A program made the position numbers and the translations under genes. DNA of 63,086 nucleotides, filler included, from an uncultured Candidatus Sumerlaeota bacterium (GTDB taxonomy: Bacteria > CAYMEV01): assembly GCA_964389675.1 (NCBI GenBank). It is 4 parts of 4 records of this genome, joined end to end, with 100 filler letters (N's around TTAATTAATTAA, not from the genome) between each part and the next. Parts side by side here need not be neighbours in the genome. Positions count along the whole stretch, not along the records: positions 34,962 to 59,618 come from CAYMEV010000034.1; 3 more parts are not named here. One strand, 5' to 3'. The notes under the pieces were generated by a model. It was not told the DNA's origin. It searched no databases and saw nothing but the letters and a program-made list of their open reading frames with translations. Positions 35,017 through 59,173 of this stretch are shown here, piece by piece (the stretch's first letter is position 1; every line of letters starts with the position of its first letter).

Positions 35017-36888
35017 GAATACTACAACAGATATATTGCTACGGATGCATTCTATGCATTCCCTGAATTATTTTCAACCGATATAGTAAATATACCCAAA
35101 AATCTTACCGGAGTGAGAGAATACAGATTTTTCAGCACTTTCTCCTATATTCTTTATACAGCCATAGGGCTTCTTTTTGTAGACTGCACCTATGACCTGA
35201 CAGGAGAGCTTGATTTTAAGGGGAAAAGCATATATTCCTTCTATCCCACCCATTTCTACAAATCAAGGAAATTTAACGAAACAGGCAATACCAGGCATAA
35301 GTGGAAAACACAGAACAACTACAAGATGGAATACAGAAATTTCCTTAAAAGCATAAAAGATAACCTTTCCACTGATAATATAGTGCTAAACCTGGATATA
35401 TCATCCTATTTTGAATCAGTAAGCCATGAGAAGCTTATAAGCCTGCTTAGTAAATTTTCACCTGAATCAAACCTGAAGTATCACAACTACGTGGATGATT
35501 CCGGTGCAATCCTTGAGTTTTATTTTGAATCCCTGATGAAACAGAAGCATTCAATACCCCAGGGAAGGAAGAATCTGGTATCTGATTATTTTGGCTATCT
35601 CTATCTAATTCCTTTTGACATAGAGATAAGCAGCCTGGTCAGAAACAATGCCCTGTCCTTTAAATGCCTGATAAGGTATGTAGATGATATATACATCATA
35701 TTTGAGAAAAACAGCAGGAAGATATCCAGTAATGATGTATTAAAGGAGCTTCTCTCCATTGAGGGCAGGATAAATTCCTGGCTTTACAGGAAACTGGGCC
35801 TGCTTATAAGCAACAGCAAAACAGTAAGAAAAATTATCACAGATGATTCGTGCAAGAGGGAATTCCTGGAAATTACAAAAAAAGCAATATCAAGCAGTGA
35901 GGTCCAGGATGACAGCAATGTATCCAAAGCCCCCAGGGAAAAGCTTCTTGAGTATTATCTCTCAGCTCTGGAAAGGTTCAGGCTGGCCGGTGATAAAAAC
36001 CTTAATTTTATAATTCCCAGAGAAAATAAGGAAGACCTGAAAATAATCTTTGACAGGAATTTCCAGAAATACCTCTTTAAGCCTGCAGTGAAAAACAGGG
36101 TAAAAAGGGCATTAAAGGCCTTTGAATTTGAACTGATGTCTGACTGCATAAATATCCTGATCGTCCTTTTCTATCTGAAAAATAAGAAAAATGAAACGCC
36201 CTATCTAAGCGACTTTATAAATTTCCTTAAATCCATAAAAGACCTCTCAGACAAAAGGTTTATCCATATTCTCCTTATGGCTGTATCTTCAAAAGAACGC
36301 TTCCCGGCCTTTGAAAAACTCATAAACAAGAACCATGATATACTGAAGCAGGATGATTACGGAAAATACCTGGCTTTAATATACCGACACAGGATAGAGG
36401 AGGACTTTTCAGGCTATTCTTCAATTGCTGTATATAATCGTATCGCAGATGAATTTCTTAATAAAAAGCTACCCAGGGCAAGCTTTATATTCAATAAGAA
36501 GGATGTTTTCTGCACCACTATTCAAAGCATAATAGCCCAATACCCTGATAATGCATTATTGATAAACTCACTGAAGAATTTCATATATTATTACAGGTCA
36601 AAAAAATGGGACCAGGCCTTTACCTTTTTTCACAGCCTTTTTTATGAACTTTGCAGATCATCCTGCAGATTAGCCGGCTCGCCTGATATTGACATCATAT
36701 CCAGAAGGATAAAGGACCTGAGTATATCAGAAGAGATAACCCTGAGAAAATTCTATAAACGAAAAAGATATACAGAGAATCCCTCTGCATCCCATAAGCC
36801 TGCGTTATCATTCAGTATAAGCAGATCAGAACTTGATAGTTATATTTCCAGTATACTGCCTATTATGGGAAAGATACCTGGAAGATAG
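35017..36888 (+). CDS. abiA: AbiA-like abortive-infection reverse transcriptase (RT, helical repeats, HEPN-like tail), 5'-truncated
   Basis: IPKNLTGVREYRFF, LDISSYFESV, SIPQG, RYVDD, K..NSKT, C-terminal RKRYTENPSASH. The frame extends 32 codons upstream of the annotated GTG to the IS end, with no ATG. Confidence 0.72.
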   Translation, partial: EYYNRYIATDAFYAFPELFSTDIVNIPKNLTGVREYRFFSTFSYILYTAIGLLFVDCTYDLTGELDFKGKSIYSFYPTHFYKSRKFNETGNTRHKWKTQNNYKMEYRNFLKSIKDNLSTDNIVLNLDISSYFESVSHEKLISLLSKFSPESNLKYHNYVDDSGAILEFYFESLMKQKHSIPQGRKNLVSDYFGYLYLIPFDIEISSLVRNNALSFKCLIRYVDDIYIIFEKNSRKISSNDVLKELLSIEGRINSWLYRKLGLLISNSKTVRKIITDDSCKREFLEITKKAISSSEVQDDSNVSKAPREKLLEYYLSALERFRLAGDKNLNFIIPRENKEDLKIIFDRNFQKYLFKPAVKNRVKRALKAFEFELMSDCINILIVLFYLKNKKNETPYLSDFINFLKSIKDLSDKRFIHILLMAVSSKERFPAFEKLINKNHDILKQDDYGKYLALIYRHRIEEDFSGYSSIAVYNRIADEFLNKKLPRASFIFNKKDVFCTTIQSIIAQYPDNALLINSLKNFIYYYRSKKWDQAFTFFHSLFYELCRSSCRLAGSPDIDIISRRIKDLSISEEITLRKFYKRKRYTENPSASHKPALSFSISRSELDSYISSILPIMGKIPGR

Positions 36889-41522: not shown

Positions 41523-42140
41523 CTAAGCAGCTTTTTTGTCAATAAAACCATTAAATTCATTCCTTTTCTCAATAGGAGATAGATATCCATTTTTCTCCAG
41601 CATCCAATGATTATTATAACTATCAATAAATATTCTTATAGCATTCGATAAATCCTCCACATTGCGATAGGCCCTTACATATATTACCTGTTCTTTCAAT
41701 GTTCTGTTGAAGCATTCCACAACTCCATTAATTTCTGGTTCTCTCGGGTACCCAAAGCCGGGAGTAATTCCCCAGTATCTATTCTGATTTATAAAGTGAT
41801 CTGATGTATACTGGCATCCATTATCCATTCTTAACTGAATGCATCTGGTGCAATTAGCTCGTGACCCATGTAAATATTTCTCTAATGCATGAATTATGGG
41901 CTCTAAGGAAGCATACCTGGTACATCTCTTAGCCACATGCCAGCCAACAATTTCCCCATGACAATGATCTATTGCTGTAAATAACCAGACGCAGACCTGA
42001 TCCCAGGTCCATATTTTTGACGCATCTGTTCTATACATTATATCAGGACTATCTGTCGTAATAGTCCCATCATGAAGCTTCTTATCCCCTCTTAATGACC
42101 TGCGGGGGGATAACAGATTATTAAGCCTCATAATATTCAA
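41523..42140 (-). CDS. IS3 transposase OrfB (rve DDE core; N-terminal part appears missing)
   Basis: TD...IDH..GEIVGW...DNG.QYTS...NG.VE.FNRTLKE. Confidence 0.8.
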   Translation of the reverse strand: MNIMRLNNLLSPRRSLRGDKKLHDGTITTDSPDIMYRTDASKIWTWDQVCVWLFTAIDHCHGEIVGWHVAKRCTRYASLEPIIHALEKYLHGSRANCTRCIQLRMDNGCQYTSDHFINQNRYWGITPGFGYPREPEINGVVECFNRTLKEQVIYVRAYRNVEDLSNAIRIFIDSYNNHWMLEKNGYLSPIEKRNEFNGFIDKKAA

Positions 42141-42498
42141 TACTCTTCTTCTGCTTCCTTAATTGGAAAAGCGCTTCCTTTTTTTGAGCCCTTTCTCTTA
42201 AGAGTTCATTGTCCATTGTTAGTTCACCGATATGTTTCTTTGCTTTATCAAGCTGCAATTTTAATGGATCTGTATTTCTTTGCTTAAGAGAAGCCTCTAT
42301 TCCAATCAGGGCCTTTTCTTTCCACTCTGAGATAATATATGACTCTATACCCAATTCTCTTGATAGTGATTCAATAGATTCTCCTCTCAATGCCCTAAGA
42401 ACTACTTCTTTTTTCATTTTGGCACTATATCTCTTTGCCGCCTTACATTTATTTGCTTGATTATCAGCCTTATTAGGGTTTTTGTTCTGATCAGACAT
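42121..42498 (-). CDS. IS3 transposase OrfA (HTH + coiled coil)
   Basis: KKEVVLR.LRGESIESLSRELG, KHIGELTMDNELL; A7G slippery run near the 3' end. Confidence 0.8.
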   Translation of the reverse strand: MSDQNKNPNKADNQANKCKAAKRYSAKMKKEVVLRALRGESIESLSRELGIESYIISEWKEKALIGIEASLKQRNTDPLKLQLDKAKKHIGELTMDNELLRERAQKKEALFQLRKQKKSIEYYEA

Positions 42499-42969: not shown

Positions 42970-44403
42970 ATGAAAAACAAGTTTAACAATCTTACTTCAA
43001 AAGAATGGCTACCCTTCCAGAAATCATGGTTTAGACATATTTCAGATAGATTCCTATATCGCGATAATATAAGGTTCTTCACTAAGATCGAGAATACTGA
43101 TGAACATGTATTGTACTTTGGTGATAAAATGGAGATTTTCAATAATATTGCTCATGAATATCAACTCAAAGTTAGTCCATTAGTAGAGTTCAAGGGTAAA
43201 ACACAATATATATTTATTGATATGCGTACTGAATTAGATAGGTGCAAGAATATTGATGAGTACTATCGATTTAAGCATCTAATAATTTCCGAAGTACAGA
43301 AACAGCTAACAAACCTAACCGAAAGGCGTTTTGTTTCTATTATTGCAAAAAATTTCCAATATTATGGGACCTATTACCCTTATGCATGGGACATCGCAAA
43401 AAGTATTAGTTGTATATTAAGTCTCAAAGATGAGAAAATTGGCTGTTTAGACTCAGATCAATCAGAAGAAAAAACTAATAAATTTTTTGCACCAAAGCAA
43501 AATATATATTACTGTCTTTACTTTCGAAAAGATGAGTACTCAAGCATAAATAATAAATATTCAGATTTCGATTTTTTTCAAAACAATACACAAGATATTA
43601 GTAGAAGAAAATTTGATAAGTCTATACCCTTTTGGTTTATACTTAAACCTCAGCCACGAAAAAAGGATGAGATTCTACACCCAGCAAAATTCCCAGAGGA
43701 CCTAGCTGAAATATTCATAAATACATTCTCTAATGAGAACGAAAACATAATTGATCCGATGGCAGGTACAGGAAGTTCCCAATTGGCAGCTTTAAAACTG
43801 AAAAGGAATGGCTACGGTACTGAGCTAAGTGAATTCTTTGCAGGAATTACAGACAGAAGATGCAGGGAATATATTGAACCAAAACAAAGGACATTAATAT
43901 TTGAAGAAAAAAAACAAAAATTCAAAATATTAAACAAGGATGCGCGTCTAATTCAAAAAGATGATTTTCCGATAATACACTATATGATTACATCACCGCC
44001 CTATTGGGACATGCTAAATGTAAAAGGAGCAGAAAACCAGGCAAAGCGTATCGAAAAAGGACTGCAAACAAACTATTCCGACTCGCCTAATGATCTAGGA
44101 AATATTGAAAACTACACTGAATTTATACATACATTAAAAGATATATACTTAAATATAGCATTAATAATGGAGACAGGAAGCTATATGACTATTGTAGTTA
44201 AAAACATAAAGAAAAAGGGAAGAAACTATCCACTTGCATGGGATCTTAGCCTAGTACTCCAGGAAAAGCTCATATTCTTACCAGAAGTTATGTGGTGTCA
44301 AGATGATATTAGAATAGCTCCATATGGATATGGCAATACTTTTGTTAGCAATACTTTCCACCAGTACTGCCTGAATTTTCAAATACCAGAAAACTTTATC
44401 TAA
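42970..44403 (+). CDS. Amino-DNA methyltransferase (SPPY, probably m4C) with a degenerate duplicated N-terminal MTase half
   Basis: C half: HPAKFP, DPMAGTGS, TSPPYW. The N half repeats flanking segments but lacks both motifs. Confidence 0.8.
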   Translation: MKNKFNNLTSKEWLPFQKSWFRHISDRFLYRDNIRFFTKIENTDEHVLYFGDKMEIFNNIAHEYQLKVSPLVEFKGKTQYIFIDMRTELDRCKNIDEYYRFKHLIISEVQKQLTNLTERRFVSIIAKNFQYYGTYYPYAWDIAKSISCILSLKDEKIGCLDSDQSEEKTNKFFAPKQNIYYCLYFRKDEYSSINNKYSDFDFFQNNTQDISRRKFDKSIPFWFILKPQPRKKDEILHPAKFPEDLAEIFINTFSNENENIIDPMAGTGSSQLAALKLKRNGYGTELSEFFAGITDRRCREYIEPKQRTLIFEEKKQKFKILNKDARLIQKDDFPIIHYMITSPPYWDMLNVKGAENQAKRIEKGLQTNYSDSPNDLGNIENYTEFIHTLKDIYLNIALIMETGSYMTIVVKNIKKKGRNYPLAWDLSLVLQEKLIFLPEVMWCQDDIRIAPYGYGNTFVSNTFHQYCLNFQIPENFI

Positions 44404-44404
44404 T

Positions 44405-47005
44405 CTATTGTAATTTGATACAATACTTACATATATTTCTATACGCACAGCTGGCACAATGCGCACCGGGGGTAGGTTCAAATTTATTATCTCTAATTGC
44501 ATTAGCAACTGTTTCTATTTTTTTCATTACTTTATCTTTATTTTCAGGCTCAATATAATCGTATAATCCGTCATTGAGATAATAGTTAGCTAGTCTTACT
44601 TTTTTGCTAGGGCTATATTTCTGATTAAAACACAATGAATAAAAAGATAGCTGGGTATTGTCTCTTTTTATTTTCCCAGTTTTAAAATCAACTATTATAA
44701 ACTCATTATTTTCTTGAAATACGACATCAAACCTGCCAGTAATAAAGTTATTTTTAATACTTATATTAAATTGATCTTCCACTGCAAATATCTTCTCTTG
44801 TTTGAGTAGATGCCTGCTATTCTTTAATAAATTATTTATCTGTTCAAGTGCAGCTTTTTTAAATTTGTTGTTCTCACTATCGCTCCTAAAATTTGTGTTT
44901 TTCCAGTTTGATTCAACTAATTTGTTAATAAGTATTGATTCAAGCTTCTTTCCATTTATAATTTCTCTAATTATAATTTCGATGATTTTATGAGTATTCC
45001 TACCAAATTCTATACCTCCAATCCTAACAGTCTCTAGATTCCAGACTTTTGAATATTTATATGCGAGCGGACATAGATTATATAAATTAATTTTATTGTA
45101 GCTTAATATGATGTTTTGATTTTGTTCACCTTTTTTATTTCTGAAATTCTGTTGCTTTAAGATACTTAATGTTAACTCTTCGGATTGTTTAGATTGATGG
45201 GTAAGCTTTTTAATAAATTTGTTAATTTGGTATTTCTTCTTTGTTAATAATAATCTGTCTGATCCTGTTATAATAAGCAGATCCTCAGCTCTAGTACAGC
45301 CAACATATAGAACTCTAATTTCTTCATTATCATCATTTGCATTTTTTTTATATACGGAGTTTAGTCGGTCTATTATGGTCTTCTTCTTTGCTCGCTCTAT
45401 TTGTGAGGGTAGAAAGACAACTGGAAACTCTAGCCCCTTTGACTGATGTATTGTCATTAGATTGATACAATCATTATTGGTGATATCTTCATAGTCAACA
45501 TTCTGGCATTTCTGTAAATAAATAATATAACTAAATAATCCCCATGGATTATAGCTACTAGAGAAATCATCAAATGTTAACACAATATCTGTAAGTTTGC
45601 CTATGTTCTGCCCATCAGCATCATATCTTTCAAAGATATCAGTTGCAATAAAAATATCATATACCAAATCGATACATGAATAGTATTTCTTGCTACTAAA
45701 TAATTTTTCCAGTTTATTTAGGTACTGCTTTTTTTCATATTCTATTCTTAGCTTAACTTTGAATGTCTTATCAATATTCTTTAATCTTTCATAAAAGCAA
45801 TTTTCCTTATTAATCTCTTTGGCGAGGTAATAATCAAGTAAAGCAATGAATTCTAATCCTAGAACACTATCGAAGAAATTTCCAGCCCCAAATAGCCTAA
45901 AGGGAATCTCATTTGCTATCAGATTATTAACTAGATTTATTGAATGGTTCTTCAAACTTCTAAACAATATTGCTATCTGACTATATTTGGTTATTATTTT
46001 TTCAGTTTTCAGCTTGATTATAGTGTTTGTGATAAACTGTATTTCATCTTCTTCATATTCGAAGAGTTTTATTACAGGTTTGTGCGATATTCCTGTTCGA
46101 CTTGCCTCTATGTTTTTATCGGTGCATTTATTTTTTAATTTTAATAATGCGTTGGTATAATCTATTATTTTTGATGTGCTGCGATAGTTTATGTTCAGAA
46201 TATCCTGCTTGACATTTATTCCTTTTTGTTCCAATGTATCTTTAAAATTAATTATATGATCGACGCTAGAGCCCCTAAAACCATAGATACTCTGATCGTC
46301 ATCACCTACCACTGTTATCTTAAATTCTGGTTCAGCAAGCTTAATAAATATCTTATTTTGTATATTGTTAACATCTTGATACTCATCAATCAAAAAAAAT
46401 GCAAAGTCATGACGAATCTTACTATGGAAATCTGCATTAGTATTAAGCTCATTCAGTATTGTTGACTGGATAGTTGCAAAATCGAAGAGCTTGTTATGTT
46501 CTAATAATACACGATAGGTTCTATATACATTACAGGCTTCCTCAAGCTCAATATCATCTCTAAAGTTAATTGATTTTATATCAATTTCCTCATCATTAAT
46601 TTTATTAAAGATTGCTGCAAGATCTTCAGATAAAGCCCATCCATTTTTTCTTATCCTATCATTTGAATATCCTAAAGCTACAAGTTTTGAATGAATAAAA
46701 TGAATCTGACTCTCTTCAGGTAAGATATCATAATCACCATAGTCTTTATCTGAATACCTTGAAAGCAGAGCAAAGCATATTGAATGAATTGTACCTATTA
46801 TAGAATTTACACTGTTTAAATCTCTTATACCAAGCTCTGTATATAGTCTTGTTGTTAATTCTTCCGTTGCTTTTCTTGTAAAGGTACATACTATAATTCC
46901 ATGATTTTTATCTTTTGCATTTCGGAATAATTGTACAGCTTTAGATATAAGAAAAGTAGTCTTTCCTGTTCCTGGTCCTGCTAATATAAGATGAGGCTTA
47001 TTCAT
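44405..47005 (-). CDS. UvrD/PcrA SF1 helicase fused to a C-terminal Fe-S PD-(D/E)XK nuclease (AdnAB/AddB-like)
   Basis: AGPGTGKT, TFT, GTIHS, IDEYQD, GDDDQSIYGFRG, NYRS, TIHQSKGLEF, YVGCTRA; then CP..Y, GRFD, VDFKTG, CASC....C. Probable ATG at 47005. Confidence 0.9.
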   Translation of the reverse strand: MNKPHLILAGPGTGKTTFLISKAVQLFRNAKDKNHGIIVCTFTRKATEELTTRLYTELGIRDLNSVNSIIGTIHSICFALLSRYSDKDYGDYDILPEESQIHFIHSKLVALGYSNDRIRKNGWALSEDLAAIFNKINDEEIDIKSINFRDDIELEEACNVYRTYRVLLEHNKLFDFATIQSTILNELNTNADFHSKIRHDFAFFLIDEYQDVNNIQNKIFIKLAEPEFKITVVGDDDQSIYGFRGSSVDHIINFKDTLEQKGINVKQDILNINYRSTSKIIDYTNALLKLKNKCTDKNIEASRTGISHKPVIKLFEYEEDEIQFITNTIIKLKTEKIITKYSQIAILFRSLKNHSINLVNNLIANEIPFRLFGAGNFFDSVLGLEFIALLDYYLAKEINKENCFYERLKNIDKTFKVKLRIEYEKKQYLNKLEKLFSSKKYYSCIDLVYDIFIATDIFERYDADGQNIGKLTDIVLTFDDFSSSYNPWGLFSYIIYLQKCQNVDYEDITNNDCINLMTIHQSKGLEFPVVFLPSQIERAKKKTIIDRLNSVYKKNANDDNEEIRVLYVGCTRAEDLLIITGSDRLLLTKKKYQINKFIKKLTHQSKQSEELTLSILKQQNFRNKKGEQNQNIILSYNKINLYNLCPLAYKYSKVWNLETVRIGGIEFGRNTHKIIEIIIREIINGKKLESILINKLVESNWKNTNFRSDSENNKFKKAALEQINNLLKNSRHLLKQEKIFAVEDQFNISIKNNFITGRFDVVFQENNEFIIVDFKTGKIKRDNTQLSFYSLCFNQKYSPSKKVRLANYYLNDGLYDYIEPENKDKVMKKIETVANAIRDNKFEPTPGAHCASCAYRNICKYCIKLQ

Positions 47006-47009
47006 ATAT

Positions 47010-47957
47010 TTAATTGCGAAACCTTCCAAATTTAATTGTATTTCTCAGCTTAGGAAATATACTAGAGAATGATGGCAGATAACTTGCAGGTACTGTTGCA
47101 TTTGTAATTGTAGTCCAGAGTGTACCATTCATAAAATTACAAGAACCTGTATAAGTTTTATTATACCATGTTGGTCTAATATATGTACGCCAGTTATTAT
47201 CTCTGTCAAAAGGTCCAGTATCCTTGAAATAATGCCAGTGATTGCTGTTGGCATATCCAGTTATAATCAGATAAGGTCTAAAATTTAACTGAATATAGTT
47301 GCTACCCCCTTTGCTATCAATAATCTGCCAGAACCACTTTTCGGTAAAAGGCTCACTGTCAACAGGAATTCCTTTATAATATTTTTCTAATTGATCAATA
47401 AAATTCAGTTGTTTTTCTGTAATACAAGATCTGTAGAACTCAATCCCTCTCTTACCATACTGTAAATCAGCAGCCTTTAGAAATGAGAAAATATAAGATG
47501 CCCCTTGCAGATTTATACTCGGATTCATTATTTCATTTCTTGTATACCACTGATCTCCAGGTCTCTTGGGTCCTGGATTAAATCGATTGGGTATGAGGCA
47601 TGGCAGATCTATATATCTGTAGCTACCAAGCATATCCAATGAGTGGAAAAGATAATTATTTTTTATATCCCATTCATAGCCATTGAGAATAAAGTCTCTT
47701 TTATCTATCTGCCAAAATGGTGTAGCACAAGTATCCCAGTCTAAGATAATATTATTTGATCTACAAAAGAATTGGAAAATTGCCTCTGCAATCTTTCCTT
47801 TAAAAATATTTATTATAGCTTGTAGTATTGTCTGTTTGTCGATACGTCTGATTGTAAATGGCTTGGATATAATTGCATATCTAATGCATTCATTTACTAT
47901 AGCATCATATTCTTTATCTGGTATGCCGTCGACAATGATAACTTCGTCTTCTGTCAT
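47010..47957 (-). CDS. Putative restriction-endonuclease-like PD-(D/E)XK protein (R2)
   Basis: GKIAE...IDKRD..GYEWDIKNN; paralogous to 47961-49010. Confidence 0.55.
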   Translation of the reverse strand: MTEDEVIIVDGIPDKEYDAIVNECIRYAIISKPFTIRRIDKQTILQAIINIFKGKIAEAIFQFFCRSNNIILDWDTCATPFWQIDKRDFILNGYEWDIKNNYLFHSLDMLGSYRYIDLPCLIPNRFNPGPKRPGDQWYTRNEIMNPSINLQGASYIFSFLKAADLQYGKRGIEFYRSCITEKQLNFIDQLEKYYKGIPVDSEPFTEKWFWQIIDSKGGSNYIQLNFRPYLIITGYANSNHWHYFKDTGPFDRDNNWRTYIRPTWYNKTYTGSCNFMNGTLWTTITNATVPASYLPSFSSIFPKLRNTIKFGRFRN

Positions 47958-47960
47958 AGC

Positions 47961-49010
47961 TTATATTCTGTTCATTGGCTCAAGTAGATTAACTGGACAT
48001 CCCCAATTATCCACTTTTATTTCGGCATATTGTTCAATATTTTTTGTGAATCGTTTATATTCACATCCATTAATTCTAAATTCCTCTTCTTTTATCCATC
48101 CTAGAAGGTAGATATATGCGTCACTGATGGTTAGATTCTGCCAGTTATTGTTGCTAGGCCAGTATCCCTGAGATTTTCTAGTTAGAGTAAATGAACATTG
48201 TGGAGAGATTATTTCTCTTAAATTTAAAGAAGTGGATAGAATTGTCAGATTACCATTAGGCATATTATCTCCAGTCCACTCAAGAGAAAAAACTTGGAAA
48301 AAGTTATTTATTGTTTTTATTTTTGATGAATTTAAATTGACTTCCTCGATACATGCCACATTTGCTTCTGTTGTTCCATAAATTTTAATAGATGAGAATT
48401 TTTTGCTGCCAGTATATTCTATTTCTAATCTACCCAAGTTTGGTAGATTTTTTGATTCAGCTCTCTTAAGCCACTTGTAGTCCCAAAAGGCATGTATTAG
48501 CGGCCTTAGACATCTCTGTTCTTTGAAATATCCTTCAATAAAAGGAAAGACATAGATTCTATCTCTGTTATGAGCTCTTCTCTTTTTATTTCCTGGATTA
48601 AGTTGATCCACTGGAACTAGTGCATGACATTTTAGAAACCACGCAAGTTTGTCATTTCTATTCGATATTTTTTTATATTTGTTATTTATATGAGTAGACG
48701 ATGTATCGAGAAAATTAGATTTAATGTCAACACTATATCCCCTTATCCCTAGATCATATCTATCAATTTCATACCATTTTGTTTTACCAGCTGTTTCGAA
48801 ATTCTTTGCATTATGGGTCAGATAAGACTCTACTGCCTTTTCAGCGATTATTCCGATTAATATTTTTTCAATCCGATTATATGGGTTGGGTTTCCCCATT
48901 CTATTAAAGGTTGAAGTCCATGATATTAGGGAATAGTCCAGCCCAGATCTGAACCAAGAATTATCTATATCCAGTCCAACAATATCTTGTGCTCTAATCA
49001 TTTTCTTCAA
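47961..49010 (-). CDS. Putative restriction-endonuclease-like PD-(D/E)XK protein (R1)
   Basis: GIIAE...IDRYD..GYSVDIKSN; overlaps the C gene. Confidence 0.55.
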   Translation of the reverse strand: MKKMIRAQDIVGLDIDNSWFRSGLDYSLISWTSTFNRMGKPNPYNRIEKILIGIIAEKAVESYLTHNAKNFETAGKTKWYEIDRYDLGIRGYSVDIKSNFLDTSSTHINNKYKKISNRNDKLAWFLKCHALVPVDQLNPGNKKRRAHNRDRIYVFPFIEGYFKEQRCLRPLIHAFWDYKWLKRAESKNLPNLGRLEIEYTGSKKFSSIKIYGTTEANVACIEEVNLNSSKIKTINNFFQVFSLEWTGDNMPNGNLTILSTSLNLREIISPQCSFTLTRKSQGYWPSNNNWQNLTISDAYIYLLGWIKEEEFRINGCEYKRFTKNIEQYAEIKVDNWGCPVNLLEPMNRI

Positions 49011-49218
49011 AGTTTAAGAGGTCAGGTAATGTTACTTTTAGAGCATTGGCAAGTCTTATTAGAGTCTTCAGAGATGGATTTCTCTCACCACGCTCTATCA
49101 TTCCAATGTAGTTCCGATCAAAGAGCCCTCTGTCCGCAAGTGCAGACTGAGTCAACCCATTTTCTAACCTAAGTTTTCTCACATGATTTCCAAAGTCTGA
49201 TAATACCTTATTACCCAT
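48994..49218 (-). CDS. XRE HTH controller (C) protein
   Basis: FG..VRKLR...GLTQ..LA....DRNYIG.IERGERNPSL..L..LA.AL, typical of R-M C proteins. Confidence 0.85.
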   Translation of the reverse strand: MGNKVLSDFGNHVRKLRLENGLTQSALADRGLFDRNYIGMIERGERNPSLKTLIRLANALKVTLPDLLNFEEND

Positions 49219-49266
49219 AAATTCAATTATATATTAATATATTTTACAATCAACCTACAATAAGTA
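49219..49266 (-). promoter_or_regulatory. Leaderless sigma-70 promoter with upstream C-box-like palindrome
   Basis: Minus strand: TACT-TAT-TGTA (49266-49256), TTGATT (49253-49248), 16 nt, TATAAT (49231-49226), 7 nt, ATG; no RBS. Confidence 0.6.
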
Positions 49267-49303
49267 TCTATTTGGCGGAATTTTATATTATTTGAAAAAG
49301 ATC

Positions 49304-50380
49304 TATACTGCAGCTAATTATCCTTTTACACAAAATTAATTTAAGCGTAAATTCTAAAGAGAATTTATTTTAATTTAGGAATAGTAACATTCAGCCCCTT
49401 GGAATAGGTCCGAAGATGCAGATAGGCTGTATATTATGTCTTTATCACCTCTAGTTATAATAGTTTCAAAAGAACACTGTAATTAAAACTTTCATAAAAA
49501 TTTAATTTCTGTAATATTGGGTAGAATATCGAAATAAGCAGACTATATCTCCTATCAAGAAGAATACCTGATAAGGTGCTTAATCGAGCATCTAAATGCA
49601 TGATGGCTAATATATCTAGTACCCAAATTGAAAAAGAAGCAGTTCTTGGGCGATTGTGTTATGAATCAATTTTATCGATATCAATAAAATTAGGTTTCAA
49701 GTCATATATTATATCAGAATAGAAAGAATAGATTATTATATATATAACTATTTCTCTAAATCTTAAAAAAACACAAATCAATTTGAAGTGAAGTTTGACA
49801 AAGCAGAGAAACATATCAGATGTCTGACAATTGAAATTGAACCCCAAAGAGAAATGGCCTAAAATAAAAACCCTTATCAAATTAAAAAAGAAAAGTTGAA
49901 AAATCTTCTATATTACTTGCAGCTAAAAAGCCACATTTCAGAAGAATAGCCTGCAGGTAGCAAGGCAACTGAGAAGATCCCAACTCTGCAGCACTGGAAT
50001 ACATTATGCAGCCATTAGTCATAATATAGTAGAAATCCCTGCGGGCTAATTGCGCTGTTAGTTGTATCCAATTAAAAAATGATAATGGATGCACGTATAC
50101 AGCAGATACTTATCAGTTCCTCCCGACCTTGGGTACATGAGATGACCAGAGACCATTGAAGCTGTAGAACAATACAACAGAACATTATACACACAGATAA
50201 GATATGGGAAGCCCTATCTATATATAGCGCATGTATCAATAGATATAATAGTCATTGGATGTTAGAAAGAAATTGATATCTATTTACCATTGATAGATGG
50301 ATTTAATTTAGTGGCTTTATTGACAGAATACCTGCTTAGGTGTATATACCTAATTAGTTTCCAATTGACTAGCTCTTGCA
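49304..50380 (+). mobile_element. Eroded second copy of the IS3 element at 41480-42751, in opposite orientation
   Basis: Starts TATACTGCAGCTAATTATCCTTTTACACAAAATTA, like the IRL. Translates to EKEAVL..ESILSISIKLG.KSYIISE* and FDKAEKHI..LT, like OrfA. Ends TCATTGGATG...TTTTATTGACA...CTGCTTAGG...TAATTAGTTTCCAATT...CA, like the OrfB end and IRR. Confidence 0.75.
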
Positions 50381-51057: not shown

Positions 51058-52428
51058 TTATCTGATGTGTGCACGTCCCAGTAGATCCAGGACACGTCCT
51101 CCTGGTCTCAGGCTAATAGCTGTGTATTTGTGAGCCAGAGCTATAGGGGCTACCGCATTCTGATACAAATCGGTCTCCACTTCTACAATTAATCGCATAG
51201 CCTTCTCCAAGGTGGAATAATTCCCAATCTTTACTTTATTTGAAATAAAATTATCCCCCCTTTTGCTGCTAAAAGGATAAGGTAATGCGAAAATAAAAAG
51301 TTTTCCCTTAGGTGTTTTGAAAGCAAAATCATGGCCATAATAAGTTTCTGATCCAAAACCATTATCTGACCGTTCAATGCCCAAATAGTCATATCTGAAA
51401 TCATCGGAAATACTGAATAATCGATTTCCCGGGATTCTATTTTGCAAGAGATTCATGTATTCAGCCAGATAGCCGCCCTTCTGCAAACCAATAACAAGCG
51501 GCTCCTTTTTGGATTCTCTTAATTTATTCAAAAATTGCATAATGCTTCGATGCAGCCATGCGGCATGCCCAAATACTGCAAGAGGTCCATCAATCAGTAT
51601 CGCTATTTCGTTTAAGATTTTAGGCGAAAAATCTCGTAGAAACCTTAGATAATGAACTGGAAGCAAATGCTCAATATAGCTCATAAAACGTGATGCTGGC
51701 TCTTGATTTGGGAAAAAGTCATTTACAGCTTCCCATACTCGTAAGCAATCGCTCACATACAACTTTCTTTCACATGAGGGACAAACATTATCGGATTTAG
51801 TTGGGTCTATATAGATGTTCGACTGCTCACAATCTTTCTGGGGACATTTATGAATTTTTATCTTGCCTGGATGTTGTCTATCATCTGGACGCAATAATGC
51901 CAGCTCAATTAACGTGCTAAGCAGACTCGTATTAACATCACTAGATATAAATCTTGTCGCCTCTGATGCAAGAAAATTTTCTGTTTGTCTTCTAAAAGTT
52001 TCTCTTACACCACTATCTCCATCTAATTTTAGGTTAGAGAGCGGTAATACTGCGGATAGGGCATCCCTATTCTTTTGCAATGCAGCCACGCGGAAAGGAT
52101 CTATCATGTTTGTTTTCTGGTCCTGAAGACCATTAAAATCTGATGTCTCAATCAATATGGTGCTGAACTTTAAATATGCGGCTCTAATGCTGGGCAGGCG
52201 ATCATCTATGCCAGAGACATAAATACTGCCATCGGATGCAATAATGTGTTTTATTAAAGGGGCTTGTGCATAATCAGGTGCTTCTTTAAAATTATTCAGC
52301 AATAGATGTTCACCATCACCAGAAGGAGGATGTATAGGCTTACATTTATTGAGAAAATTTTGAACATCAGGATTCCTAACGATATCACTATGCGATGTTT
52401 TACTTCCAAATTGATTATCGTATGGCAT
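51058..52428 (-). CDS. nurA: NurA-like nuclease with zinc-ribbon insert
   Basis: IASDGS, LIDGPL, GLQKGG, YYG, PIALAH; CPQKDC...CPSC insert; downstream of HerA. Confidence 0.72.
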   Translation of the reverse strand: MPYDNQFGSKTSHSDIVRNPDVQNFLNKCKPIHPPSGDGEHLLLNNFKEAPDYAQAPLIKHIIASDGSIYVSGIDDRLPSIRAAYLKFSTILIETSDFNGLQDQKTNMIDPFRVAALQKNRDALSAVLPLSNLKLDGDSGVRETFRRQTENFLASEATRFISSDVNTSLLSTLIELALLRPDDRQHPGKIKIHKCPQKDCEQSNIYIDPTKSDNVCPSCERKLYVSDCLRVWEAVNDFFPNQEPASRFMSYIEHLLPVHYLRFLRDFSPKILNEIAILIDGPLAVFGHAAWLHRSIMQFLNKLRESKKEPLVIGLQKGGYLAEYMNLLQNRIPGNRLFSISDDFRYDYLGIERSDNGFGSETYYGHDFAFKTPKGKLFIFALPYPFSSKRGDNFISNKVKIGNYSTLEKAMRLIVEVETDLYQNAVAPIALAHKYTAISLRPGGRVLDLLGRAHIR

Positions 52429-52447
52429 TATGCACCTTCTAATTTTT

Positions 52448-54424
52448 CTATTTATTTTTTTTATTCTTAGGATTGAACTTATGAATCTGAACAGGAATCA
52501 CAAAAGGGCTGGATAGAGTTTTAATCCTATCAAAACCAACATCTTGTGCGCGTATCAATGATTTGCTGAAATCTGAAAAATCATAAAATTTCGACAACTC
52601 TTTTATCTCTCCTTCATTATTTAAATGAGATACAAAAATATTCTCTGTATTAGCAAGAATGTTTGGATGAATTGAAGAAACTTCCTGGGTTGAGTATACG
52701 GTAGCTATTCTGCATTTTGCACCTTCTTTTGCAATGCGTGGCCAAACATCCGTAATATCATCTTTCTTCCCCATCAAGTTATGTGCTTCTTCAACATAAA
52801 TAACAATGTTAGGTGCAAATTTTCCTTCATTAAAGGTTGCCATTGACCGATTAAAGATATGTCGGGCAATTACTTTGCTTAGACGCTCTCTATGTTCCGG
52901 ATCACCTACGGATAGATCTAGAATAACGATTTTCCCATCCAGAAGGTGATCATATATTTCCTGCGAAACATCCTGATTCCTATCACGAGAATGATAAACC
53001 TTCAGTGGTGATAAATGTCTATGTCCGGTTATATACGCATTGTTGCTATTCTTCTGAGCCAACATATTTAGTAACGCCACCGCATCTGCATCGAACCAGT
53101 CATTTCCTGACGACGATTTAAGGGGATTATTTTTGTTTATGTCCCTTGCCCTTAGCAGCCATCTTACTGCTTGCTCTAAATTTAGAGTTAGCATCTGGCC
53201 TTTTTTTGGGGGGAAACTAGCATCATCATTCACTGTGTTGTGAATATCTTTATTAACCGGAAAAGTTATTTTATGTTCAATTGGAGCAAGAAATCCTGCT
53301 TTGTACAATATCGCTTGATAAATACCCTTTTTGACTTGCCAACGGTTATATTCGCTTATATTTTCATGTTCTGGCTCCTCAAATGATACGTTTAGGAATT
53401 GTTTTAAATCAGCTGAAGGAGTTCCCTTATCTCCTAGAATCTGTCTAATGATGGCGAATCCTTCGTTGATTTGAATATAAAAGTTGTTCTGAATAAGATG
53501 AAATCCCGGAGCTTCCAGCAGACGATATCTTTCTGTGCTATCCGGATATATGTCAGCAAGAGATGATCCTGCATCTTGTTGGTTTGCATTGGCATATTCG
53601 CCATTGAGATCATAGATAATTTGTCCTATTTTCATTTCGGTTTCATCCGCTGTATTCTTTACAACTGAGACAAGCTGTTTGATCATGTTTGACTTACCGG
53701 TTCTTGTCATACCAAATACGCCGGTGCGACGGGCAAGGAAATCGACCGACTGTATTCGAAAGACCACTTTATCCTGCTGGAACTCTCGCTGGAGTCTCTG
53801 TGTCGATGTATACCTGACATTACCTATTGGGAATGACGGAAGCGAAGTTTCCAGATTCATTTTTTCAGCTTCTTCCTTAGCCGAATTCTCTCGTATAGGT
53901 GATATGTAATTGACAATTTCCCCTAATGAATCTCCTACAGGCTTATAGACTTGAAGATGTACAGCGCTATGATATGTTTCAATATCGCTTCCCAGCAACA
54001 ACCTGCCATTAGTGTCAGTATAAAATGTTCCTAATACTCTGCATTCAAGACCACTAAATTGCAACTGATTGCGGGTCAAATCGTCTAGATCTTCACCATT
54101 ACGGATATCTTGTTGCTCCTGAAAATGCTCAATTTTTGTGCGCACAAGATCATCTTCCATGGGCAATCTTGACGAGCCTATGACGCGCAATAGGACAACT
54201 TCTTTCTCGTAGGTCTTTGCTTCTGTATATTTGTCAGGATTAAAAGCAGTCGCTATTAAGAAACAATTATGAGGGATTCCGCCAACCTTCTCTTTCCAAA
54301 TATCGTTAGTCATGACATTGGCCTTCTCATAATCGATATGATATATCCATCCGATAAAATTATCTATCTGCACTAGGCGTGGTAGAGGGTCAGATCTAAA
54401 TATCTTATTCATTATTTGTTCCAT
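52448..54424 (-). CDS. herA: HerA/FtsK-family ATPase (DUF87)
   Basis: GVFGMTRTGKS, YDLNGEY, YVEEAH, RIAKEGAK, STQ. Confidence 0.85.
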   Translation of the reverse strand: MEQIMNKIFRSDPLPRLVQIDNFIGWIYHIDYEKANVMTNDIWKEKVGGIPHNCFLIATAFNPDKYTEAKTYEKEVVLLRVIGSSRLPMEDDLVRTKIEHFQEQQDIRNGEDLDDLTRNQLQFSGLECRVLGTFYTDTNGRLLLGSDIETYHSAVHLQVYKPVGDSLGEIVNYISPIRENSAKEEAEKMNLETSLPSFPIGNVRYTSTQRLQREFQQDKVVFRIQSVDFLARRTGVFGMTRTGKSNMIKQLVSVVKNTADETEMKIGQIIYDLNGEYANANQQDAGSSLADIYPDSTERYRLLEAPGFHLIQNNFYIQINEGFAIIRQILGDKGTPSADLKQFLNVSFEEPEHENISEYNRWQVKKGIYQAILYKAGFLAPIEHKITFPVNKDIHNTVNDDASFPPKKGQMLTLNLEQAVRWLLRARDINKNNPLKSSSGNDWFDADAVALLNMLAQKNSNNAYITGHRHLSPLKVYHSRDRNQDVSQEIYDHLLDGKIVILDLSVGDPEHRERLSKVIARHIFNRSMATFNEGKFAPNIVIYVEEAHNLMGKKDDITDVWPRIAKEGAKCRIATVYSTQEVSSIHPNILANTENIFVSHLNNEGEIKELSKFYDFSDFSKSLIRAQDVGFDRIKTLSSPFVIPVQIHKFNPKNKKNK

Positions 54425-55365
54425 TATTGGACCTCCATGGATCTGTTTTTACTATTTATTTTCGCTACTAATTTCCATCGTGCTGTATTTATTGATTTTT
54501 TACCGGGTAATTTTAGATACTGAGGGGCTATCAGAAGCTCTCTGCCCTTGCTGCTAGACTGCAATGAATAACCTAAAGTAAATATCCACATTTGACATGG
54601 CTCGTACAGATTGCGAATAAGTTGAATATCATCATATGAAGCAACCCAATTAAGGCTTTTCTGATCTAATAAATAGTGTGCCAATTTGCCATGGTCGCTA
54701 TTTTTGTAAAAATTAAAATATAACTTATTCCCCGCAGATACATACGGTGGATCGCAATATACCAGGATTCTTTTGCGTTCTTGGCCACTGGGTAATTGTT
54801 TTTTCAAAAACTCAATTGCATCCATATTAGATATTTTTATATGCTTTTTAAGCATTCCAATCTTAGAGATTCGTTCTGAAAGCATATTCCGGTTAAATCT
54901 AGCGTCTAATTTCCAGCTCCCTTTTTGCTCATACCCTCCAATGGGACCTGCTCCTGCAATAATACCTGACCTATTGCAACGGTTGAGATAGAAAGTCGAA
55001 CAGGCAATTTCAAAAATTTTATATTTATTAGGACTATGATATATTTCTTTATGTTTTCTCCATTCATCAATGGTGAGTGGGACATCTATTAGCCAGTCAA
55101 CGAATTCCTGATTTTTTTCAATAATTATCTTCCAAAAATAATAAATATGACAATCCGCGTCATTTATAATTACTTCGGATGCAATACCGCTTGATAGCAG
55201 TCCAAGAGCTATGCCGCTACCACCTGCAAAAGGCTCAAAATACCTACACCCTTCTAGACTGTTCTGCGTAATCAAGGTTCTAAAATATGATGAGAGTAAT
55301 CCTTTCCCTCCTGGGTATCTTAGAGGACTTATAAGATTTAAATTATTTCTATTTCTTCTATTCAT
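54424..55365 (-). CDS. Dam-like (D12 class) DNA adenine methyltransferase
   Basis: SPLRYPGGK, EPFAGG, IND, YLNR, DPPY, SYD; TAATG coupling to herA. Confidence 0.9.
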   Translation of the reverse strand: MNRRNRNNLNLISPLRYPGGKGLLSSYFRTLITQNSLEGCRYFEPFAGGSGIALGLLSSGIASEVIINDADCHIYYFWKIIIEKNQEFVDWLIDVPLTIDEWRKHKEIYHSPNKYKIFEIACSTFYLNRCNRSGIIAGAGPIGGYEQKGSWKLDARFNRNMLSERISKIGMLKKHIKISNMDAIEFLKKQLPSGQERKRILVYCDPPYVSAGNKLYFNFYKNSDHGKLAHYLLDQKSLNWVASYDDIQLIRNLYEPCQMWIFTLGYSLQSSSKGRELLIAPQYLKLPGKKSINTARWKLVAKINSKNRSMEVQ

Positions 55366-58227: not shown

Positions 58228-58240
58228 TAGGTAGGATTCA

Positions 58241-59173
58241 ATGATGTCAATTGTTGTTGATCCATCCTTATTCTGCATTTCAAAAAAAGATAGTAGCAGT
58301 GACTATGATAAGGATGATTTCTTGGAACATTTGTTGAACAATCTAAAAATGCTCTCAGATGAGATTACACCAGATGTATATCATATTGATGAATTCATTT
58401 ATTCTATAATGGATCTCCAAAAAAATATTTCTTTTACTAAATATTTTAATGGTTGCACAATAAATAAATATATCAGCTTAATTTTACAAAAGACCAAAAA
58501 AATTAAAAATAATCTAAATTTGGATAAAATGAAATTAGATCCGTGCAAATCAGAGCCTGTTATGACTTGTAATGATTTAGAAGCATTAAAATATTTTCAT
58601 ATATTAATGCATTATCTAATTATAAAGAAAGAGGATGTATGGATTACTTTAGGCCTAGAGAACAAAAGAAAACTTACAAAAAATAATATGAATTTTGAAT
58701 TTAAATGTAATTGTCATACATATAGATTGAAACCAGAAATACTGAGAAATGTTAAAGATTTTTATAAAGATATTAAATATTTCAATGAATTTTGGCCAAA
58801 AAAAAGTACAAATTGCAAGGAAAGCTTAGAAACGTTATTGTCAATTCATAATGAATACTGCATGGGGAAAGAAATAATAAACGAAGAATATTCATTTTCT
58901 GATGATTTTATTAAGGATTTACTGGGTGTGACCAATGATAAAGAACGGGAAAAAATAATAGAGAGTATGATTTTGAGATTATCGCTTACAGCAGCGGCAG
59001 CAGGTGCTGACAATCATCTGCGGGATGAGGAAGTGAAAAATGAAAAGAATTCAAAAACCTATAGATTTAGAGTAAAAAATGAAACTAGAATTCATTATAA
59101 GTTTGTTAATAAAGCTATATGTTTTATTAACTATTTCGGTCCGGGAAAACATGATAAAGGATTAAAAAAATAA
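58241..59173 (+). CDS. ATPase partner protein with possible RelE-like C-terminal domain
   Basis: 13 nt after the ATPase stop; C-terminus YRFRVKNETRIHY....I.FINY...KHD. Confidence 0.5.
   Translation: MMSIVVDPSLFCISKKDSSSDYDKDDFLEHLLNNLKMLSDEITPDVYHIDEFIYSIMDLQKNISFTKYFNGCTINKYISLILQKTKKIKNNLNLDKMKLDPCKSEPVMTCNDLEALKYFHILMHYLIIKKEDVWITLGLENKRKLTKNNMNFEFKCNCHTYRLKPEILRNVKDFYKDIKYFNEFWPKKSTNCKESLETLLSIHNEYCMGKEIINEEYSFSDDFIKDLLGVTNDKEREKIIESMILRLSLTAAAAGADNHLRDEEVKNEKNSKTYRFRVKNETRIHYKFVNKAICFINYFGPGKHDKGLKK

What the first reader, a model, noticed from the sequence alone, without database searches (positions are those of the whole stretch)
42970..49218. Candidate new restriction system: C + two paralogous nucleases + helicase-nuclease, convergent with a pseudo-dimeric MTase
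Seen: a tightly coupled operon C-R1-R2-UvrD/Fe-S nuclease (17-nt overlap, then 3- and 4-nt gaps) ending 1 nt from the MTase stop. R1 and R2 align (YSLIS/YAIIS, GIIAE/GKIAE, IDRYD/IDKRD, GYSVDIKSN/GYEWDIKNN). Established: heterodimeric type IIT enzymes (BbvCI, Bpu10I) have two R subunits but no helicase, and types I/III use SF2 motors. I know of no described R-M system with a co-translated SF1 helicase-AddB-like nuclease. Inference: an R1/R2 heterodimer nicks or cuts an asymmetric unmethylated site, then the helicase-nuclease degrades DNA from the break.
Basis: partly seen in the sequence, partly recalled or inferred. Interest (0 to 1): 0.85.

Follow-up and report, generated by a model that had tools for sequence, protein, structure and literature searches.

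The report
Restriction cassette with helicase-nuclease partner
This is a real, conserved bacterial restriction-modification gene cassette in which two related DNA-cutting proteins of an uncatalogued family always travel with a RecB-like helicase-nuclease; that partnership was predicted in print for other restriction systems but has never been tested.

Summary
The five genes are at the stated coordinates and are tightly packed. C is a controller-type HTH protein. M is an N4/N6-type methyltransferase with SPPY. H is a UvrD-type SF1 helicase fused to a Cas4/AddB-like four-cysteine nuclease. R1 and R2 match no Pfam, NCBIfam, PADLOC or PDB sequence. They share a homologous N-terminal domain of about 155 aa (hhalign 99.4%) with invariant E...D...DxK residues. 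Their models resemble PD-(D/E)xK nucleases only weakly (Z 5-7).

Among 36 related loci, 27 of 28 with enough DNA have R2 and 25 of 25 have H; 19 hold all four genes. The four genes diverge together (r 0.85-0.96). Five distant loci carry only an R1-like gene and a shorter M.

It is not unprecedented. Hudaiberdiev et al. 2017 reported UvrD-Cas4 fusions beside type III and Dcm/type II systems, and REBASE lists type II "H" helicase proteins. I rate it a new variant of a known kind.

The proposed mechanism is inference: R1/R2 cut unmethylated DNA and H degrades from the break. The MTase is not pseudo-dimeric; it has one catalytic set and an inserted partial duplicate.

The parts
42970..44403 (+). 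M: DNA N4/N6-type methyltransferase, 477 aa. Motif I (DPMAGTGSS, about residues 262-270) precedes SPPY (342-345). An insert of about 200 aa (residues ~20-222) is a degenerate partial duplicate of the C-terminal part.
   Evidence: Pfam N6_N4_Mtase 1.3e-15. PADLOC MTase_II 1.4e-26. PDB 2zie aligns SPPY and motif I in permuted order. Internal repeat E 8e-6. The insert is absent from 6 shorter relatives.
44405..47029 (-). H: UvrD-type SF1 helicase fused to a C-terminal Cas4/AddB-like PD-(D/E)xK nuclease with four cysteines. The likely start is the ATG at 47005.
   Evidence: Pfam UvrD-helicase 4e-52, UvrD_C 1.7e-32, PDDEXK_1 2.3e-26. NCBIfam cas4 1.2e-14; recB and addA hits lie far below their cut-offs. 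Walker A, DEYQD and the 4 Cys are kept in 20 of 20 sequences and the nuclease D/DxK in 19 of 20.
47010..47957 (-). R2: 315-aa predicted PD-(D/E)xK nuclease, a paralog of R1 in the N-terminal ~160 aa. E58, D85, D88, D97 and K99 are invariant.
   Evidence: No family hit. Alignment A2. hhalign to R1 99.4%. AF2 pLDDT 90.8. Best fold matches are Hjc (Z 5.3), I-Ssp6803I (5.2), DpnI (5.0) and PvuII (4.4).
47961..49010 (-). R1: 349-aa (346 from the ATG at 49001) predicted PD-(D/E)xK nuclease with a beta-sandwich insert (~165-300). E57, D83, D86, D95 and K97 are invariant.
   Evidence: No family hit. 83 homologous clusters, none with an informative name: the few names given are 'hypothetical protein' or a bare gene-call line, and one Pfam tag each sits on two partial-coverage hits. 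Alignment A1. AF2 pLDDT 89.2. Best fold matches are Hjc (Z 7.4, rmsd 3.4, 108 aa), D212 (6.3), NhoI (6.0) and DpnI (5.2).
48994..49218 (-). C: 74-aa HTH controller protein
   Evidence: Pfam HTH_3 4.3e-17. PADLOC Control_protein 4.5e-17. A homolog lies upstream of R1 in 15 of 30 loci with at least 300 nt upstream.
49255..49268 (-). Operator-like box GATACTTATTGTAG upstream of C. In most related loci a second copy follows 9-10 nt downstream. In the window that second position (about 49232-49245) is degenerate (6 of 14 by my reading).
   Evidence: Alignment A3 of 12 upstream regions: the first box is nearly invariant, and the second is clearly kept in about 7 of 12 by eye. Sequence.

Best explanation
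This is a C-protein-regulated restriction-modification cassette of a type II-like kind with four working parts.

Shown: M is a methyltransferase with a single catalytic set (motif I then SPPY). R1 and R2 are ancient paralogs that share one catalytic domain and each keep an intact E...D...DxK site. H is a RecB/AddA-like single-chain helicase-nuclease (UvrD motor plus Cas4-like Fe-S nuclease). The four genes are inherited together.

Inferred: M marks host DNA, probably as N4-methylcytosine (the link from SPPY to m4C is recalled, not tested). R1 and R2 act together, most simply as a heterodimer with one active site per strand, on unmethylated sites. H then loads at the resulting nick or break and unwinds and degrades the foreign DNA with ATP. 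Restriction would then be irreversible and would not depend on the host's own RecBCD/AddAB.

Inferred: C and its conserved operator boxes delay nuclease expression after transfer.
For: - Domains and motifs.
- R1/R2 paralogy: E 4e-7; 99.4%.
- Catalytic residues are invariant in 23 of 23 R1 and 24 of 24 R2 sequences.
- The top fold matches for both models are PD-(D/E)xK nucleases, several of them type II enzymes: NhoI, DpnI, EcoRV, PvuII, HincII, MspI, SfiI, SwaI, BglI.
- Synteny: R2 in 27 of 28, H in 25 of 25, all four genes in 19 loci, including loci where the order is rearranged (L013, L014 and L018 have M upstream; L023 has R2 after M; L030 has the paralog upstream).
- Co-divergence: r 0.85-0.96 over 120 pairs from 16 cassettes.
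- Short gaps or overlaps at R1/R2 and R2/H in most loci (coordinates).
- H helicase motifs are kept in 20 of 20 and nuclease motifs in 19 of 20.
- Operator-like boxes are conserved upstream of C.
- Other full-length UvrD-Cas4 proteins sit beside R-M genes (PMC5704561 passages).
Against: - There is no biochemical or genetic evidence at all.
- The fold Z-scores (at most 7.4 and 5.3) lie in the range the tool calls common for unrelated models.
- Five distant loci have an R1-like gene with a short M and no R2 or H within the DNA held (up to 7 kb downstream in L035). The R fold may therefore restrict without H, and H may be dispensable.
- L010 has both nuclease catalytic residues of H replaced (N for D, N for K) while its helicase motifs are intact. 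This does not fit a role that needs the H nuclease.
- A single catalytic MTase is unusual for an asymmetric site that a heterodimer would imply.
- One full-length H relative lies beside SbcCD in a housekeeping context, so the family is not exclusively defensive.
- All loci were fetched by similarity to R1. Cassettes with R2 and H but no R1 could not have been seen.
Confidence: 0.5

Rival explanations
1. Two modules share one operon. R1 plus M is an ordinary type II R-M system in which R1 is a homodimer. R2 plus H is a separate nuclease-NTPase defence module, like the PD-(D/E)xK-plus-helicase pairs of Hachiman, Gabija or Nhi-like systems, that has become genetically linked. It may sense damage or DNA ends rather than unmethylated sites.
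For: - Simple R-plus-short-M loci exist without R2 or H (5 loci).
- R2 and H always appear together in my sample.
- R2 evolves partly on its own. L003 and L004 share 96% R1 but only 60% R2, and about 300 nt in the middle of R2 do not align. R2 also gives the lowest mirror-tree correlations.
- Nuclease-NTPase pairs are a recognised class (10.1101/2025.07.10.664194, passages read).
Against: - R2 is a paralog of R1 over the whole catalytic domain, which is the pattern of two-subunit restriction enzymes.
- R1/R2 and R2/H are translationally coupled in most loci.
- No PADLOC model of any nuclease-NTPase system matches R2.
- The sample cannot show R2 and H standing alone because loci were fetched through R1.
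Confidence: 0.2
2. H is a motor for long-range communication, as in CglI/NgoAVII (R plus H subunits) or type III enzymes. ATP-driven movement from a recognition site activates cleavage by R1/R2. H does not act after the cut.
For: - ATP-dependent R-M enzymes with a separate helicase-like H subunit exist (CglI; abstracts in the search listing only).
- A single-strand or single-catalytic MTase fits systems that need two sites.
- L010 keeps the helicase motifs but has lost the nuclease residues of H.
Against: - H is an SF1 UvrD-type helicase. The known R-M motors are SF2 and move on double-stranded DNA (CglI abstract; the rest is established knowledge).
- The Cas4-like nuclease site and the four cysteines are kept in 19 of 20 and 20 of 20 sequences. 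A pure motor would not need them.
Confidence: 0.15
3. H protects the host. It processes accidental self-cuts made by R1/R2 into substrates for recombinational repair. It would be a private RecB-like repair function or an addiction-softening device, not a weapon against phage.
For: - The family has RecB/AddA-like architecture.
- One full-length relative lies beside SbcCD in a housekeeping neighbourhood.
- PMC5704561 suggests redundancy with RecB (passage).
Against: - Strict co-inheritance with the nucleases on a mobile, IS-flanked cassette in a defence island fits a defence component better.
- Simple R+M relatives manage without it.
Confidence: 0.1

Closest known systems
UvrD-Cas4 helicase-nuclease fusions next to R-M genes (Hudaiberdiev et al. 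2017, PMC5704561; passages read)
   Same: The architecture of H is the same: an SF1 UvrD helicase with a C-terminal pfam12705 Cas4-like nuclease and four cysteines. It also sits beside a methyltransferase, PD-DExK nuclease genes and an HTH gene. An ancillary defence role was predicted for these fusions.
   Different: The published contexts are type III Mod/Res and Dcm (m5C) with Vsr. Here the MTase is of the N4/N6 SPPY type, and the nucleases are two paralogs of a family with no Pfam, PADLOC or NCBIfam model. H is only 24-28% identical to the plasmid examples I found. The paper's supplementary tables, which I could not open, may list further contexts.
Type IIT heterodimeric restriction enzymes (BbvCI, Bpu10I)
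   Same: Two related subunit genes lie side by side, and each has its own PD-(D/E)xK catalytic site. [quoted passage not shown]
   Different: There is no detectable sequence similarity to any PDB chain. The cassette has one MTase gene, whereas BbvCI has two (recalled). A helicase-nuclease gene is obligatorily linked. R1 and R2 differ in their C-terminal halves.
CglI / NgoAVII ATP-dependent R-M systems (R + H + M); REBASE 'H' type II helicase domain proteins
   Same: These are R-M systems with a separate helicase-family subunit encoded beside R and M. That REBASE has this category is taken from PMC10855626 (one passage).
   Different: H.CglI is an SF2 DEAD-Z1 motor and R.CglI/R.NgoAVII are a different kind of nuclease with a separate DNA-binding domain (abstracts). 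Here H is SF1 with its own nuclease, and R1/R2 are predicted PD-(D/E)xK proteins.
RecB / AddA / AddB end-processing helicase-nucleases
   Same: The domain order is the same: an SF1A helicase followed by a PD-(D/E)xK nuclease. The Fe-S cysteine pattern is that of AddB/Cas4.
   Different: H scores far below the family cut-offs (recB 128 bits against 696; addA 106 against 708). It is a single chain of about 870 aa with no partner subunit gene of that family.
Gabija (GajA + GajB)
   Same: H matches the GajB (UvrD helicase) models strongly (1.7e-57).
   Different: No GajA/OLD nuclease gene belongs to the cassette. GajB has no fused nuclease domain (recalled). Here an MTase and a C protein are present.

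Membership tests
Type II restriction-modification system | Separate methyltransferase and endonuclease genes side by side | tested here: met
   M (Pfam N6_N4_Mtase, PADLOC MTase_II) is convergent with the R1-R2 operon. The linkage is kept in 19 loci.
Type II restriction-modification system | Endonuclease with a PD-(D/E)xK (or other known) catalytic fold | tested here: inconclusive
   E...D...DxK is invariant in R1 and R2. The best fold matches are PD-(D/E)xK nucleases, but Z is only 7.4 and 5.3. No sequence model matches.
Type II restriction-modification system | Site-specific cleavage blocked by the cognate methylation, without ATP | not testable with these tools
   This needs cloning, a methylome and cleavage assays.
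Type IIT (heterodimeric) restriction enzymes | Two different subunits form the active enzyme | not testable with these tools
   Only gene adjacency, paralogy and co-inheritance are shown.
BbvCI/Bpu10I family | Sequence homology to the BbvCI or Bpu10I subunits | tested here: inconclusive
   No PDB chain was matched by sequence or profile at E up to 10 apart from chance hits. BbvCI was not among the 50 listed fold matches, which does not exclude it.
UvrD-Cas4 fusion family (pfam12705 branch of Hudaiberdiev 2017) | UvrD-like SF1 helicase fused to a Cas4-like nuclease with four conserved cysteines | tested here: met
   Pfam UvrD-helicase, UvrD_C and PDDEXK_1. NCBIfam cas4 1.2e-14. Cysteines 653, 858, 861 and 867, conserved in 20 of 20 sequences.
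UvrD-Cas4 fusion family (pfam12705 branch of Hudaiberdiev 2017) | Placement inside the monophyletic helicase clade of the fusion proteins | not tested
   No tree with the published set was made. The best full-length plasmid matches (24-28% identity) have the same architecture and include R-M contexts.
CglI/NgoAVII-type ATP-dependent R-M | H subunit is an SF2 DEAD-Z1 helicase-like motor | tested here: not met
   H is an SF1 UvrD/REP helicase (Pfam 4e-52).
Gabija | GajA (ATPase-OLD/Toprim nuclease) encoded with GajB | tested here: not met
   None of the five cassette proteins matches GajA. Only H matches GajB models. GajA-like hits in the window belong to a different gene at 56653-58227, whose best match is NsnB.
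C-protein-controlled R-M | Small HTH controller gene upstream of R, with repeated operator boxes before it | tested here: met
   PADLOC Control_protein 4.5e-17. The GATACTTATTGTAG boxes are conserved in the 12 aligned upstream regions; the window keeps the first box only.

The most novel reading that the evidence does not exclude
This is a self-contained two-stage restriction machine. A methylation-sensitive pair of paralogous nucleases from a previously uncatalogued family makes the first nick or cut. It hands the DNA to its own dedicated RecB-like helicase-nuclease, which destroys it processively. Restriction would then not depend on host RecBCD/AddAB and would resist phage inhibitors of those enzymes. 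The same logic would explain why UvrD-Cas4 proteins recur beside unrelated type II and type III systems.
Probability: 0.35. Interest if true: 0.75.

Novelty: new variant of a known kind. Interest (0 to 1): 0.55.

Why it matters
UvrD-Cas4 helicase-nucleases were predicted in 2017 to assist R-M systems. In the library I searched, the term 'UvrD-Cas4' appears in that one paper only, and I found no experimental test of the prediction.

This cassette is compact at about 6.5 kb, intact in the window, and has many natural variants. Those variants include one with a nuclease-dead H, some with an added McrB-N reader protein, and simple R+M relatives without H. That makes it a good system for asking what a dedicated end-processing motor adds to restriction.

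It also adds a nuclease family to the restriction repertoire: 294 representatives among 1.84 billion proteins, with no Pfam or PADLOC model. Current defence-finding tools would call only the MTase, C and a 'GajB-like' helicase here.

Tried and rejected
- Complex prediction of R1 with R2, using alignments A1 and A2, gave no verdict (score 0.01, mark 0.32). It counts neither for nor against binding.
- Foldseek of the R1 model against the PDB gave only meaningless beta-sandwich matches. The wide VIA search was used instead.
- PDB sequence and profile searches for R1 and R2 found nothing beyond chance.
- Fused forms were sought among longer proteins (R2-H, R1-R2). None was found for R2 or R1, and the tool calls this weak evidence. 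An apparent R2-H fusion in L016 came from my own ORF script; a stop codon separates the two genes.
- The profile search of 1.84 billion representatives found 294 relatives. I scanned 61 of the more distant full-length ones. None of the 61 had a Pfam family and none had a PADLOC model, so no bridge to a named REase family was found.
- The ESM Atlas returned only unnamed clusters.
- R1 has no match in the plasmid collection. H has no full-length match in the phage collection. One viral contig (L041) carries the cassette.
- REBASE and DefenseFinder could not be queried, and supplements of PMC5704561 could not be opened.
- Chance adjacency in a defence island was rejected on synteny and co-divergence.
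Full report
**What is there**

The window carries five tightly packed genes at 42970-49218:
- M, 42970-44403, plus strand, 477 aa.
- On the minus strand, converging on M: C (48994-49218, 74 aa), R1 (47961-49010), R2 (47010-47957) and H (44405-47029).

Junctions were read directly from the sequence:
- C and R1 overlap by 17 nt if R1 starts at the TTG, or by 8 nt (ATGATTAG) if it starts at the ATG at 49001. The ATG gives the 346-aa form present in the database (P0001).
- R1 stop to R2 ATG is 3 nt.
- R2 stop to the H ATG at 47005 is 4 nt.
- The stops of H and M are 1 nt apart.

**The proteins**

- C is an HTH_3 protein (4e-17) and matches PADLOC 'Control_protein' (4.5e-17).
- M matches N6_N4_Mtase (1e-15) and PADLOC type II MTase models (1e-26).
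- H matches UvrD-helicase (4e-52), UvrD_C (2e-32) and PDDEXK_1 (2e-26), and NCBIfam cas4 (1e-14). Its recB and addA hits are far below their cut-offs. It has Walker A (AGPGTGKT), DEYQD, a D...DxK/QxxxY nuclease site, and Cys653 plus C858-x2-C861-x5-C867.
- R1 and R2 match nothing in Pfam, PADLOC or NCBIfam at E up to 0.1. They match nothing meaningful among PDB sequences, alone or as profiles.

**R1 and R2 are paralogous nucleases**

- BLASTP gives 30% identity over 122 aa (E 4e-7).
- Profiles of 23 R1 and 24 R2 sequences align at 99.4% probability (E 9e-22), but only over the N-terminal ~155 residues. The C-terminal halves differ.
- E57, D83, D86, D95 and K97 of R1 are invariant, as are E58, D85, D88, D97 and K99 of R2.
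- AlphaFold models are confident: pLDDT 89.2 for R1 and 90.8 for R2.
- Foldseek found nothing useful.
- The Foldseek-independent search put PD-(D/E)xK nucleases on top for both.
  - R1: Hjc Z 7.4 (rmsd 3.4 over 108 aa), D212 6.3, NhoI 6.0, I-Ssp6803I 5.5, DpnI 5.2, then EcoRV, PvuII, HincII and MspI at about 4-4.5. R1 residues ~165-300 form a separate beta-sandwich.
  - R2: Hjc 5.3, I-Ssp6803I 5.2, DpnI 5.0, PvuII 4.4, then ThaI-like 3ndh, SfiI, SwaI, BglI and EcoRV.
- These Z values fall in the range the tool warns is common. The nuclease fold therefore rests on the motif together with a consistent list of matches, not on a strong single match.

**It is a conserved unit**

R1 has 83 homologous clusters at 90% identity, none with an informative name: the few names given are 'hypothetical protein' or a bare gene-call line. 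Pattern scans returned 41 related loci: 1 from 185,579 species genomes (a Bacteroidales MAG with frameshifts), 39 from metagenome contigs and 1 viral contig.

Thirty-six of the 41 loci have R1 at 35% identity or more. Among these:
- 27 of the 28 with at least 1 kb downstream have R2. The exception, L030, has a divergent paralog upstream instead.
- 25 of the 25 with at least 1.5 kb downstream have H.
- 19 hold R1, R2, H and M together.
- The four loci counted as lacking M have at most about 1 kb downstream, so the usual place of M is not covered.

Gene order varies while the gene set is kept. M lies upstream in L013, L014 and L018, and R2 lies beyond M in L023.

Pairwise distances of the four proteins across 16 cassettes correlate at r 0.85-0.96 (120 pairs). 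A shared host history could add to this correlation.

In H, Walker A, DEYQD and the four cysteines are kept in 20 of 20 sequences. The nuclease residues are kept in 19 of 20; L010 has N in place of both D and K.

C is found in only 15 of the 30 loci with enough upstream DNA. Where C is present, a box GATACTTATTGTAG precedes it, usually twice. The window keeps the first copy (49255-49268), and the second position is degenerate.

**Simple relatives**

Five distant loci (R at 27-34% identity, aligned over the full length in four of them) have only the R gene and a shorter M of 283-332 aa. L034 and L035 are flanked by oxidoreductase and DsbD genes, and L035 has 7 kb downstream without a helicase.

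In a tree of the shared domain, 14 R2 sequences form one clade (100/98). The single R proteins fall with R1 (89/99). The L030 paralog sits on a long branch. R1 therefore has the architecture of the stand-alone enzyme, and R2 is the old, diverged partner. Whether the simple systems are ancestral or reduced is not resolved.

**The methyltransferase**

Against PDB 2zie, the SPPY region (335-419) aligns to the chain's N-terminal part and motif I (236-298) to its C-terminal part. The order here is therefore motif I and then motif IV, permuted relative to the beta class.

Residues ~20-222 are an insert that is missing from the six short relatives. Inside the insert, 94-161 weakly repeats 378-445 (E 8e-6). 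The place of SPPY in that repeat reads DMRT.

M therefore has one catalytic set and a degenerate partial duplicate. 'Pseudo-dimeric' overstates this. L030 has H and two R paralogs with a short M, so the insert is not tied to H.

**What is already known**

- Hudaiberdiev et al. 2017 (PMC5704561; passages read) describe UvrD-Cas4-like fusions as the largest pfam12705 branch and as monophyletic. They report them most often beside type III Mod/Res, and also beside Dcm with Vsr, HTH and PD-DExK genes. They conclude that these fusions are ancillary parts of several defence systems.
- CglI and NgoAVII are studied R+H+M systems with an SF2 H subunit (abstracts only).
- My own search of plasmids found three full-length H relatives at 24-28% identity. 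One lies beside a DNA methyltransferase and a DEAD/DEAH helicase. One lies beside Dcm, an MspI-family enzyme and Vsr. One lies beside SbcCD, RlmN and a PBP.
- Nuclease-plus-helicase pairs are a recognised class of defence system (10.1101/2025.07.10.664194, passages).
- I found no paper describing this particular combination in seven literature searches. 'UvrD-Cas4' occurs in one paper only. REBASE, DefenseFinder and the papers' supplements were not available to me.

**How it most likely works**

Shown: a methyltransferase, two catalytically intact paralogous nucleases and an intact helicase-nuclease are inherited as one cassette under a controller protein.

Inferred: M protects host sites. R1 and R2 act together on unmethylated sites, most simply as a heterodimer with one active site per strand as in BbvCI (abstract). 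H loads at the nick or end and unwinds and degrades the DNA, as RecBCD does with restriction fragments in E. coli (established knowledge).

I give this reading about 0.5. The rivals are:
- a two-module reading, with R1+M as a plain R-M system and R2+H as a nuclease-NTPase module (0.2);
- a motor-for-communication role for H (0.15);
- a host-repair role for H (0.1).

Points against my reading: the simple R+M relatives, the nuclease-dead H of L010, the single catalytic MTase, and the bias of fetching loci through R1.

**Verdict**

It extends a theme already in print rather than founding a new one, so I rate it a new variant of a known kind with interest 0.55.

Noticed in passing
window 41523-42498 (-) and 49567-50336 (+): The cassette is bracketed by two inverted IS3-family relics. 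On the M side are orfA (HTH_Tnp_1) and a 205-aa rve integrase-core ORF. On the C side is a frame-broken copy with 37-62% protein identity in pieces and about 68-70% nucleotide identity. This looks like a composite-transposon-like setting or an insertion hot spot.
   Followed up: partly
window 35113-36888 (+): A 591-aa reverse transcriptase (RVT_1 5e-8; PADLOC AbiA/DRT models up to 5e-16) lies in a low-GC stretch (27-37% between 27 and 38 kb). It is probably another defence gene.
   Followed up: partly
window 51058-55365 (-): A three-gene run. The Dam-type D12 methyltransferase matches PADLOC PD-Lambda-5_B (2e-100). It is followed by a 658-aa HerA/DUF87-like ATPase and a 456-aa protein with no family. 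This may be a second methylase-linked defence system.
   Followed up: partly
window 56653-59173 (+): An AAA_15/AAA_21 ATPase matches PADLOC NsnB of Menshen (1e-67). It is followed by a 310-aa ORF with no family. A SusC-like TonB-dependent receptor at 59819-62599 suggests a Bacteroidota host.
   Followed up: partly
L006 2853-3314 (the same gap of about 430 nt is present in L002 and L007): In L006 an extra 153-aa ORF with a McrB N-terminal (MrcB_N, PF12102, 5e-8) DNA-reader domain sits between R2 and H. L002 and L007 have the same ~430-nt gap, but their ORFs were not examined. This hints at an added modified-DNA sensing function.
   Followed up: partly
L010 8000-10723: In this cassette the H nuclease site reads RFN...DFN instead of RFD...DFK. 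The helicase motifs and the four cysteines are intact, and R1, R2 and M are full length.
   Followed up: no
L003 against L004 (R2, about L003 3123-3417): These two cassettes have 96-97% identical C and R1 but only 60% identical R2. About 300 nt in the middle of R2 do not align, while H is 83% and M 78% identical. The middle of R2 appears to be exchanged between cassettes. The window's R2 is of the L003 type.
   Followed up: partly
L001 7780-14053: This is the only copy found in 185,579 species genomes (a Bacteroidales MAG). R1, R2, H and M are each split into several ORFs. This could be decay or long-read frameshift errors; I could not tell which.
   Followed up: no
L023 1819-4902: A 1027-aa PLD-ResIII-Helicase_C-DUF3427 protein lies about 2 kb upstream of this rearranged cassette, with an amidohydrolase gene in between. 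It is another defence-type gene nearby.
   Followed up: no
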